NCBI GenBank assembly: GCA_951406725.2
Contig: OX597816.1
Span: 115,010,001 to 115,074,000, forward strand
DNA length: 64,000 nt
Source: Octopus vulgaris
Lineage: Eukaryota
Direction: 5' to 3'
How positions within the stretch are numbered: the first letter of the stretch is position 1; each line of letters starts with the position of its first letter. Made by a program: the position numbers and the translations under genes. The notes beneath the pieces are model-generated. The model did not search any database, was not told where the DNA came from, and worked only from the letters and a program-made list of their open reading frames with translations. This document shows positions 31,831 through 44,400 of the stretch, piece after piece.

Positions 31831-32854
31831 GTGGCATTAGCAATGTGATCCTTATCATCATTATCTTGATTAATCTTATCTGTTTTCTTTTCTCACCTAC
31901 TTGTGTTTTCATCTCACCCTTCTCTGTCTTATCCACCACCACCACCACCACCACCACCACCTCTTCCTCCTACAACTAAAAGCCTATAAAAGAGGGCTTT
32001 TGGAGAGATTCAAACCCACCATACCCCTCACTGTCCCTGCCACACAACCCCACACCACCACCACCACCACCACCACCACTACTTTGTTCATTCATATTTT
32101 CTTTTTTTGTTTTGGTAAACAGCTGTCTTTTCATGTCTATGAGAATAAGTGCATAAAAAAATGAAAGAACTGATAAAATGCCATCATAAGTGTATTATAT
32201 AACTAACTCCATCACCTTGCTTCCTTTCTCTTTGAGTTCCTTCACACACAGTCACAATGCCTTGCCACAAATATACATCATCACCTCTTTGTGACCCCAA
32301 GCTCCAGAAGTGTGCCAATGTGTTTAACTGTACATATGTGTGTCACAGGGTATGTACTTATGTATATGTGTGTATATATGTATATATATATATATATATA
32401 TAGATATATGCATATGTATGCATATATATACATATATATATAATCATACGTCTATTTGTTTTAGTCATTTGACTGTGGCCATGCTGGAGCACCGTCTTTT
32501 CGCCGAAAAAAAATCAACCCCAGGACTTATTCTTTGTAAACCTAATACTTATTTCATCACCCTCTTTTGCCAAACTGTTAAGTTATGGGGACATAAACAC
32601 AGACACATAAGCATACACACACACACACACACACAATATATATATATATAATATATATATACATATGTATATATGTGTGTGTGTTTATGTGTCTGTGTTT
32701 ATGTCCCCATAACTTAACAGTTTGAAAGTGATGAAATAGTATTAGGCTTACAATACTAATACTTATTTCATCACCCTCTAATACTAATACTTATTTCATC
32801 ACCCTCTTTTGCCAAACTGTTAAGTTATGGGGACATAAACACAGACACATACAT

Positions 32855-33361
<507 letters not shown>

Positions 33362-34050
33362 CTCTCTCTATAGTCTGTGTCTTTCTCTTTCCTTGCTTCT
33401 GATTCTTCCCCCACTCTTATTTGCACCGTCATTTCTATTGCTAAGCCAATCCTGTTTCTTCTCCCCTCTTTGATTCCTTCCTTCTCTCTCTCTCCCCCCT
33501 GGTGCCTTCGTCCCTTTCTTTCTCTCACTCTTTGATTCCTTGCTCCCTGCTTTTCTTTTTCTTTCTCTTTCTTCCGTGCTCTCACATGACCGCATTCAAA
33601 TCGGTCTTTTCGGCTTGACCGCTGCCATGTTAACGTTTGTTTTCGTTTTGCCGCAAAGGCATTTTTCAAATACGCCAGCCAAGATAAGTTAAAAATTGTC
33701 CAAAGTCGTAAGACGCCCGCTGTTTTTGTCCTGCTTACCATTCTTGTTTTTTTATTTCTATTTCTTGTTTCTTGTATTTATATTCGTGTGGCATCATGTC
33801 TTTGTTTCGTATACATTCGATCTTCTTTCCAAGAAATCTAATGCCTGTGGCTTAGTTTTTCCTTGGGGCTGGCCAGTTCGGAGTGATATCGAGATTAAAC
33901 AGCCGAAATTGCTAAGATGATCTGGTTCCGACTGAAGATTAGAGGCTTCGAGTTACCCGTCTGTTTTTTTTGTGTCGTCTCCTTGTGTGTTTTTGCGTTC
34001 TTGTCCTACCTTGTAATTTATATTTTATATTTAATTTCTATACAGATATG

Positions 34051-34148
<98 letters not shown>

Positions 34149-34196
34149 GATAAATATCAAAAGTGAGTTATATACAGTAGCAGTAACACATCATGA

Positions 34197-34481
34197 GACG
34201 TATATTTGCCATTTCAATATGGCTACCCCTAAGGGTGGATGCTACTATGTGACAACTATGTGACAACTATGATTGTCACACGCTGACGAGAGGTCAATAC
34301 CTCGAAACTCGAGTCCATGTGTATCATAAGTTGAAGACGGGAAGGATGGCTTCCCTTTGCAAATACTGATAGGGCACAGAAAGTGTGTCTATGGCCAGCT
34401 GGAGGAGTGTGTCCTCCTGGGGCTAAAAACTACAGTAGCATCCACCCTTAGGGGTAGCCATATTGAAATGGCAAATATACG

Positions 34482-34483
<2 letters not shown>
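34197..34483 (+). mobile_element. Short non-coding hammerhead-bearing element with perfect 50-bp inverted ends, between (TA)n tracts
   Basis: 34197-34246 is the exact reverse complement of 34434-34483. Confidence 0.8.
34264..34333 (+). ncRNA. Minimal type I hammerhead ribozyme with intact catalytic core
   Basis: CACACG-CTGACGA-GAGGT caat ACCTC-GAAA-CTCGAG-TC^CATGTG; palindromic helix III ACTCGAGT; GUC cleavage after 34315; distal helix I CAACTATGAT / ATCATAAGTTG. Confidence 0.88.
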
Positions 34484-34557
<74 letters not shown>

Positions 34558-40925: not shown

Positions 40926-41092
40926 GTTCTCTAGATGCGGGCCTAGCTGCTGGGGGTGTTTGTCTCTCCTTCGTAAATATATAAGGACACAGTAAATGTG
41001 TCGAAGCTGACAGGAAGCGTTCGGTGCTTCCTAGGGCTAAGCAGCGGTGGTGTAATCCCCTACTGTCACGTTAAATTGACTGTATGCAGCTA
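40926..41092 (+). mobile_element. CpG-rich structured insertion in (TA)n, homologous to the post-hammerhead part of 34329-34450
   Basis: Shared hairpins GACACA/TGTGTC and GGAAGC/GCTTCC, and T(A/G)GGGCTAA. Confidence 0.6.
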
Positions 41093-43730: not shown

Positions 43731-44400
43731 CATCATCATCATCATCATCATCATTTAACGTCCGCTTTCCATGCTAGCATGGGTTGGACGGTTCAACTGG
43801 GGTCTGGGGAGCCCGAAAGCTGCACCAGTCCAGTCAGATCTGGCAGTGTTTCTACAGCTGGATGCCCTTCCTAACGCCAACCACTCCGAGAGTGTAGTGG
43901 GTGATTTTATGTGCCACCGACACAGGTGCCAGACGAGGCTGGCAAACGGCCACGCTCGGATGGTGTTTTTTATGTGCCACCGACACAGGTGCCAGACGAG
44001 GCTGGCAGACGGCCACGCTCAGATGGTGTTTTTATGTGCCACCGACACAGGTGCCAGATGAGGCTGGCAAAACGGCCACGATCGGATGGTGCTTGTTACG
44101 TGCCCACAGCACGGAGGCCAGTCGATGCGGTACTGGCTACGGCCACATTCGGATGGTTTTCTTGTGTGCCACGTGCCACCGGCACTGGTACCACAAGGAT
44201 ACAAATTCCATTGATGTTCATCTATTTTGATTTGTTTTGATTTGATTTTCACTTGCCTCAACAGGTCTTCACAAGTGTCACAAGAAGGAAGGTATGCACA
44301 GGTGGACTGACTACGTCCCAGGTAGGGGCCATGGGTTATGGCCTGACTAGTCTTGCCGGGTCTTCGGATGGTGTTTTTATGTGCCACCGACACAGGTGCT
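43731..44400 (-). mobile_element. Young RTE-related 3' element with internal ~62-bp tandem repeats
   Basis: (CAT)n tail; unit TATGTGCCACCGACACAGGTGCCAGA at 43908, 43971, 44033 and near 44378. Confidence 0.8.

What the first reader, a model, noticed from the sequence alone, without database searches (positions are those of the whole stretch)
34329..34450. Unassigned covarying multi-hairpin RNA motif downstream of the hammerhead, shared with 40946-41062
Seen, copy A vs copy B: H1 GGGAAG/CTTCCC vs GGGGG/CTCTC; linker TTGCAAATA vs TCGTAAATA; H2 GGCACA gaaag TGTGTC vs GACACA gtaaa TGTGTC; H3 GGAGGA/TCCTCC vs GGAAGC/GCTTCC, extended by TGGCC/GGCTA vs AGCT/GGCT; conserved T(G/A)GGGCTAA; closing stem AGTT/AACT vs GCTGCT/AGCAGC. 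Stems change while pairing, order and spacing are kept. By eye it does not fit HDV, twister, pistol, hatchet or hairpin ribozymes. Inference: an undescribed structured RNA, perhaps an RT-recruitment element or a second catalytic domain.
Basis: partly seen in the sequence, partly recalled or inferred. Interest (0 to 1): 0.72.

Follow-up and report, generated by a model that had tools for sequence, protein, structure and literature searches.

The report
Conserved folded core of hammerhead retrozymes
The two stretches are related copies of a small non-coding jumping element that carries a hammerhead motif; they keep two hairpins just ahead of the fixed points where copies end, which likely serve as a docking site for a borrowed Penelope-type copying enzyme rather than as a second catalytic RNA.

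Summary
The resemblance is real and comes from common descent. Both loci belong to one superfamily of about 350-365-nt hammerhead retrozymes: six families analysed, 47-82% identical, 4,887 exact H2-H3 pattern hits against 13 for the control.

H2 and H3 hold in all six families, but only inner H3 covaries; H2 and outer H3 are nearly invariant. The closing stem fails (50-54% paired). The linker pairs with the strand upstream of the hammerhead, and H1 is predicted only when that strand is absent. The domain extends past 34450 (H4, H6).

Insertion 3' ends cluster at two sites downstream of the domain, and 38 of 57 two-armed insertions use one site per arm, a Penelope-like signature. Best reading (0.5): a protein-docking platform that positions a borrowed Penelope reverse transcriptase. 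Against it, none of the autonomous Penelope-like ends sampled carries the motif, and per-pair covariation is not significant after tree correction. A second ribozyme is unlikely. I found no description of this fold in six paper searches. The scan has already noted such retrozymes, their two fixed ends and a covarying 350-nt fold on other DNA.

The parts
34145..34245 (-). Inverted left arm of insertion A (unit positions +119 to +216 after the cut); its 3' end is site 2, facing (TA)n
34261..34487 (+). Right arm of insertion A: 5'-truncated retrozyme unit ending at site 1 (+173), followed by (TA)n
34277..34321 (+). Type I hammerhead; predicted cut after 34315
   Evidence: Rfam RF00163, 27.7 bits (gathering 34), E 6.7e-05; an intact family copy scores 32.2 bits
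34329..34333 (+). AGTTG: 3' strand of the extended hammerhead stem I, not the 5' strand of a closing stem
   Evidence: 87% paired, 4 of 5 pairs with double changes; probability 0.90 in the unit against 0.0 for the closing stem
34339..34355 (+). H1: conserved alternative hairpin, predicted only when the strand upstream of the hammerhead is absent
34356..34367 (+).
34373..34389 (+). H2 hairpin: stem nearly invariant across families, loop length variable
34392..34425 (+). H3: near-invariant outer stem, internal loop, covarying inner stem
34430..34439 (+). 5' strand of H4 (covarying 9-bp helix; its 3' strand lies beyond site 1 and is missing from this arm)
34457..34473 (+). H6 hairpin; end site 1 lies about 12-18 nt after it
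40927..41092 (+). Copy B: 5'-truncated unit of family B between (TA)n arrays, starting at about the hammerhead cut and ending near site 1; holds H1, H2 (40986-41002), H3 (41005-41039), H4 5' strand (41044-41052), H6 (41065-41080)

Best explanation
Both loci are truncated copies of one superfamily of about 350-365-nt hammerhead retrozymes, and the shared hairpins H2 and H3 are the most conserved part of a predicted multibranch junction that likely binds protein and positions a borrowed Penelope-type reverse transcriptase on two start sites just downstream. Shown from sequence: homology of the families over the whole unit, tandem and inverted arrays, a type I hammerhead 55-60 nt ahead of H2, fixed 3' ends with scattered 5' ends, and family-specific complementarity of the rod strands. 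Predicted: the unit folds as a rod with the hammerhead at one end and the junction (H2, H3, H4 enclosing H6, further hairpins) at the other; H1 is an alternative fold that forms when the upstream strand is absent. Inferred: transcription, self-cleavage and circularisation as in other animal retrozymes; nicking of AT-rich DNA by a Penelope-like endonuclease; initiation at site 1 (A/C-rich strand inside the H4 loop) for one arm and site 2 for the other; H2/H3 as the protein-binding surface.
For: Families A, A2, C, D, B, B2 align along the unit at 47-82%. H2 (0.82) and H3 (0.77) are at least as conserved between families as the hammerhead core (0.71), against 0.45-0.53 for rod strands. Invariant stems with loops of variable length point to sequence-specific reading of an RNA hairpin. 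H2 and H3 have pair probability 0.89 or more in every context folded. 3' ends at +160-179 or +210-239 nt after the cut: A 34 of 43, B 42 of 48, B2 32 of 33, C 40 of 65, A2 23 of 26 (reference ends at +225), D 16 of 18 (reference covers site 1 only); 5' ends are spread over the unit. B2 is the least biased sample, since most copies came from a pattern ending at +60. Of 57 two-armed insertions, 38 use site 1 on one arm and site 2 on the other, 2 use the same site, 17 have an unclassified end. In the anole Poseidon element the shortest active template spans ORF +20 to +172 around a cut at +26, with internal initiation at two sites, one in an AC-rich stem loop (PMC11167929; read parts 1-2 of 4).
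Against: No binding or retrotransposition data. None of the autonomous Penelope-like 3' ends examined carries the motif: the model found 5 strong hits in 76 Penelope-bearing loci, all retrozyme units with flanking unit homology and none the element's own terminal repeat; those elements have short hammerheads with AT- or pyrimidine-rich tails. So mimicry of a partner's terminal repeat is not supported, and no partner is identified. In a tree-aware per-pair test no pair reached E<0.05 (best: inner H3, E 0.15); hammerhead stem I also failed (best E 3.7), so power is low. RNAalifold on the 28-copy alignment did not return H1, H2 or the linker helix; it returned H2 on the second alignment. The motif always lies within 120 nt of end site 1, so its presence in nearly every copy follows from 5' truncation and is no evidence of function. 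(TA)n follows the 3' end in only 29 of 43 A, 25 of 33 B2, 15 of 48 B, 17 of 65 C, 9 of 26 A2 and 4 of 18 D ends.
Confidence: 0.5

Rival explanations
1. H2/H3 bind a host protein that stabilises, ligates, exports or silences the RNA circle, and have no direct role in reverse transcription.
For: Stem sequence is conserved rather than covarying. The motif is absent from the autonomous elements sampled. Cervera and de la Pena argue that the hammerhead in animal circles must be blocked by something other than self-pairing (PMC7229834, Discussion read).
Against: The domain sits at a fixed distance ahead of both end sites in all families, in the stretch that the anole enzyme needs (PMC11167929).
Confidence: 0.27
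2. The hairpins are only structural packing of a highly paired circle, kept by descent, with no specific partner.
For: The families are homologous throughout; tree-aware covariation is not significant per pair; animal retrozyme circles are generally predicted to be self-paired (PMC7229834, passages).
Against: Pure packing helices here (rod strands, stem I, H4, inner H3) change letters freely, whereas 11 of 12 paired bases of H2 are the same in all six families.
Confidence: 0.13
3. The conserved letters are a DNA-level internal promoter (A-box-like TAGCCAGCTGG; the consensus is recalled, not from a call).
For: An A-box-like word lies at the 5' side of H3 in A, A2, C and D; the elements need a promoter.
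Against: The word is not kept in B/B2, I saw no B box, runs of four or five T lie inside the unit, including in H3 of C and D, ARAGORN finds nothing in the window, and the H2 spacer length varies.
Confidence: 0.06
4. The motif is a second ribozyme (cleaving or ligating).
For: Conserved multibranch junction; GGCUAA recalls the HDV J4/2 strand (recalled resemblance).
Against: Nearly all invariant bases are paired, with only scattered unpaired ones. GGCU pairs in outer H3 in 95% of cells. No Rfam ribozyme hit but the hammerhead at E<=10. HDV descriptor: 0 hits on 8 strands, run without a positive control. 5' ends do not pile up anywhere in the motif.
Confidence: 0.04

Closest known systems
Animal non-LTR retrozymes (Cervera and de la Pena 2020, PMC7229834: passages and Discussion read; Li, Clavereau and Pollet 2026, bioRxiv 10.64898/2026.07.22.740005: parts 1-3 of 5 read)
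   Same: Non-coding tandem units of about 350 nt, each with a type I hammerhead, thousands of copies, predicted highly paired fold, Penelope-like elements in the same genome.
   Different: In the parts I read these papers show minimum-energy folds of single circles and no conserved domain across families. The Xenopus retrozymes often match Penelope terminal repeats (24 of 57 families matched known elements); this superfamily matched none of the autonomous ends sampled.
Template region of the anole Poseidon element PAc (Frangieh et al. 2024, PMC11167929; parts 1-2 of 4 read, supplements not read)
   Same: Required RNA lies downstream of the hammerhead; two internal start sites give the tail; AT-rich targets; one start in an AC-rich stretch.
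   Different: That region is protein-coding and cis to its own ORF; no H2/H3-type fold is described in the text read; no sequence comparison was made here.
Penelope-like insertion anatomy (Craig et al. 2021, PMC8557442; passages read)
   Same: 5' truncation, partial tandems, inverted 5' arm, tail at one end, microsatellite targets.
   Different: The distance between the two end sites is about 45-60 nt here against a 30-40-bp tail; no ORF.
Alu domain of 7SL-derived SINEs (recalled, no call)
   Same: Functional analogy only: a folded domain that the autonomous partner lacks and that helps capture its enzyme.
   Different: No sequence or Rfam match to SRP RNA; different retroelement class.

Membership tests
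Animal non-LTR retrozyme | Type I hammerhead in each unit | tested here: met
   family A, just under the gathering score; core pattern with stems in all families. Rfam did not hit the B2 hammerhead, whose core reads CCGAUGA.
Animal non-LTR retrozyme | Short non-coding tandem units, dispersed, many copies | tested here: met
   Cut-to-cut units of 351-354 (A), 355 (C), 363-366 nt (B, B2); 1967 and 2353 first-look candidates; no frame of 120 aa at locus A, and those over locus B run through (TA)n
Animal non-LTR retrozyme | Expressed, self-cleaved and circularised RNA | not testable with these tools
   Only assembled contigs of runs not on record as RNA were available
Penelope-mobilised element | 5' truncation, inverted arm, two 3' end sites (tail) | tested here: met
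Penelope-mobilised element | AT-rich or (TA)n target | tested here: inconclusive
   Majority in young families A and B2, minority in B, C, A2, D; the test counted only (TA)3 within 4 nt
Derivative of a Penelope terminal repeat | Homology to the pLTR of an autonomous element | tested here: not met
   76 Penelope-bearing loci from two protein-side searches, roughly ten families; other families may exist
HDV-like ribozyme | Nested double pseudoknot with J4/2 catalytic C | tested here: not met
   (descriptor without positive control)
Twister, twister-sister, pistol, hatchet, hairpin ribozymes | Match to the family covariance model | tested here: not met
   No such hit at E<=10 in four scans against all 4227 Rfam families
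tRNA-derived SINE / Pol III element | tRNA-like head with A and B boxes | tested here: not met
   ARAGORN 0 genes; no tRNA hit in Rfam scans; boxes judged by eye

The most novel reading that the evidence does not exclude
These retrozymes carry their own sequence-specific RNP domain (H2-H3 junction), absent from the Penelope-like elements they exploit, that captures the enzyme in trans as the Alu domain does for SINEs, while a conserved H1/rod switch releases each cleaved unit from its neighbour so that it can close into a circle.
Probability: 0.25. Interest if true: 0.7.

Novelty: new variant of a known kind. Interest (0 to 1): 0.4.

Why it matters
How animal retrozymes are recognised by the enzyme that copies them is open: the papers read propose Penelope-like elements but name no RNA element. 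Six or more diverged families give a natural mutagenesis that separates freely changing helices from sequence-locked ones and fixes two start sites. That yields a short list of mutations for the existing in vitro Penelope assay, in a genome that also holds young, apparently intact Penelope-like ORFs. The class of element is known and the scan has met it many times, so the gain is the domain map, not a new system.

Tried and rejected
Whole-window Rfam scan and repeat search were swamped by microsatellites. Reading locus A as a MITE with terminal inverted repeats was dropped: the inverted part is the left arm of the same unit. Closing stem rejected. Pattern scan of viral contigs gave 41 matches, none scored by the model at E<=1. 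The model found no third copy in the window (best other hit E 0.31). Sequencing runs: no RNA holder listed. Contigs of 4 of the 24 listed runs were laid; two hold a 383-nt contig that closes on itself, which fits a tandem array as well as a circle, so it is not used as evidence. Retrozyme copies next to Penelope ORFs (L222, L230, L004, L007) proved on reading to be separate insertions; L204 was judged only by strand and profile coverage. Copy B starting at the cut site looks coincidental: 4 of 44 B 5' ends fall in the two bins flanking the cut. The covariance model could not be run over the genome, so distant relatives without the exact pattern are unsearched. No other animal genome was searchable, so distribution beyond this genome is open. 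Rows dropped: 68 of 166 hammerhead-centred segments as not intact, then reduction to 35, then a hand-balanced set of 28 for A1; 82 segments reaching site 2 reduced to 34. The H6 rows are unreliable for B/B2 because of misalignment. Paper searches; supplements of the retrozyme and PAc papers were not read and may show similar folds. Sequence look-up in earlier findings returned nothing.

Full report
Observation. Locus A follows a type I hammerhead at 34277-34321. Locus B has none in the window and no Rfam match.

What the loci are. Each is a copy of a high-copy repeat (1967 and 2353 candidates). Flanks show tandem units of 351-366 nt, each with a hammerhead, often with an inverted arm. Further searches gave families A2, B2, C and D, which align with A and B along the unit at 47-82%. 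An exact H2-H3 pattern has 4,887 matches against 13 for the reversed control. All of the first 30 lie in this superfamily; 16 have a pattern-matching hammerhead cut 55-60 nt before H2, and the rest are truncated, inverted, internally deleted or mutated there. The motif is therefore part of a retrozyme unit, not a separate module. The host is probably an octopus; that label comes from earlier AI notes and was not tested.

The fold, corrected. In whole units the hammerhead caps a long rod and the motif lies at a junction at its far end (the single C unit available folds otherwise). The upstream strand pairs with the downstream strand of its own family far better than with others (mean -38.0 against -21.8 kcal/mol; best partner in 6 of 6), while the closing stem shows no such preference (-3.0 against -2.2; 2 of 6). 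On 28 copies the closing stem is 50-54% paired, whereas the same 5' strand paired upstream is 87% paired with double changes in 4 of 5 pairs. H1 keeps 5-6 of 6 pairs in every family, with two family-level double changes, yet has probability 0.00-0.02 in the unit and 0.99-1.0 in 5' fragments: a conserved alternative fold. H2 and outer H3 are nearly invariant; inner H3 and H4 covary. By inspection, two inner-H3 columns split the sister pairs A/A2 or B/B2, so several independent double changes are needed. A tree-aware per-pair test still found nothing at E<0.05, and failed on hammerhead stem I as well. Covariation is thus supported at helix level, not proven per pair.

Mechanism. 3' ends cluster at +160-179 and +210-239 nt after the cut, and 5' ends scatter. 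In 38 of 57 two-armed insertions one arm ends at each site; the window's locus A is such a case. Site 1 is an A/C-rich strand just after H6 inside the H4 loop. This matches the internal, two-site initiation shown for the anole Poseidon protein (PMC11167929) and the general Penelope-like anatomy (PMC8557442). H2 and H3 are as conserved as the hammerhead core while neighbouring helices drift, which suggests a partner reads them. I infer a docking platform for the retroelement protein (0.5), with a host-protein role as main rival (0.27).

What speaks against. The genome holds young Penelope-like elements with RT and GIY-YIG domains, but their ends carry short hammerheads and simple tails without the motif. 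The partner is unidentified and mimicry of its terminal repeat is unsupported. Nothing here shows expression, cleavage, circles or binding.

Second ribozyme. Unlikely (0.04): invariant bases are almost all paired, and neither Rfam nor an HDV descriptor fits.

Comparison and novelty. The element works like, and by the testable features is, an animal non-LTR retrozyme (PMC7229834; bioRxiv 10.64898/2026.07.22.740005). Six searches found no account of this family or of a conserved downstream domain; the library lacks most subscription papers and I read no supplements. PMC4209133 was seen as passages only. Earlier notes of this scan already report such retrozymes with two fixed ends and, in another genome, a 350-nt family with covarying hairpins; I did not test whether that is the same family.

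Verdict. A real, conserved, apparently undescribed domain inside a known kind of element, with part of the proposed fold wrong. New variant of a known kind; interest 0.40.

Noticed in passing
L017:1-1728 (G000:C2:214147430-): The 3' end of a Penelope-like ORF and part of its terminal repeat run straight into a family A dimer on the same strand with no (TA)n between; could be a template switch between the two RNAs. One case.
   Followed up: partly
L338 (- strand, downstream of the motif): A family A arm ending at site 2 is followed after a short TA run by the hammerhead-bearing tail of the 781-aa Penelope-like family.
   Followed up: no
L216:906-5700: Young Penelope-like element with a 781-aa RT/GIY-YIG frame, an upstream frame, a hammerhead-like core with U3/A8 in place of C3/G8, and two alternative 3' ends of its own.
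   Followed up: partly
L241-L269: Second young, C-rich Penelope-like family (8161 first-look candidates, 96-98% identical) with a short hammerhead about 100 nt before its end.
   Followed up: partly
window 33900-33960: GAAA precedes CTGAAGA in a repeat that abuts the same (TA)n array as locus A; may be the rearranged hammerhead that earlier notes describe.
   Followed up: no
L126:1339-5480: Two inverted B2 arms enclose about 4 kb with two copies of a frame bearing a zinc-knuckle-like motif; capture or later insertion not resolved.
   Followed up: no
L321, L336, L338: Junctions between inverted and forward arms fall where the two rod strands are complementary, so the rod supplies the homology for the switch.
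   Followed up: no
L223:2530-2700: A different short hammerhead-bearing repeat with an AT-rich tail and no H2/H3.
   Followed up: no
alignment A1 columns 41-45: ATCAG is invariant in all six families at the opposite side of the junction, next to a covarying hairpin upstream of the rod.
   Followed up: partly
window 32573-32722: Palindromic element around a TA/CA core; its Rfam microRNA hit is below the gathering score and probably spurious.
   Followed up: no
window 43905-44104: 63-bp tandem repeat, 3.2 copies, 92% matches.
   Followed up: no
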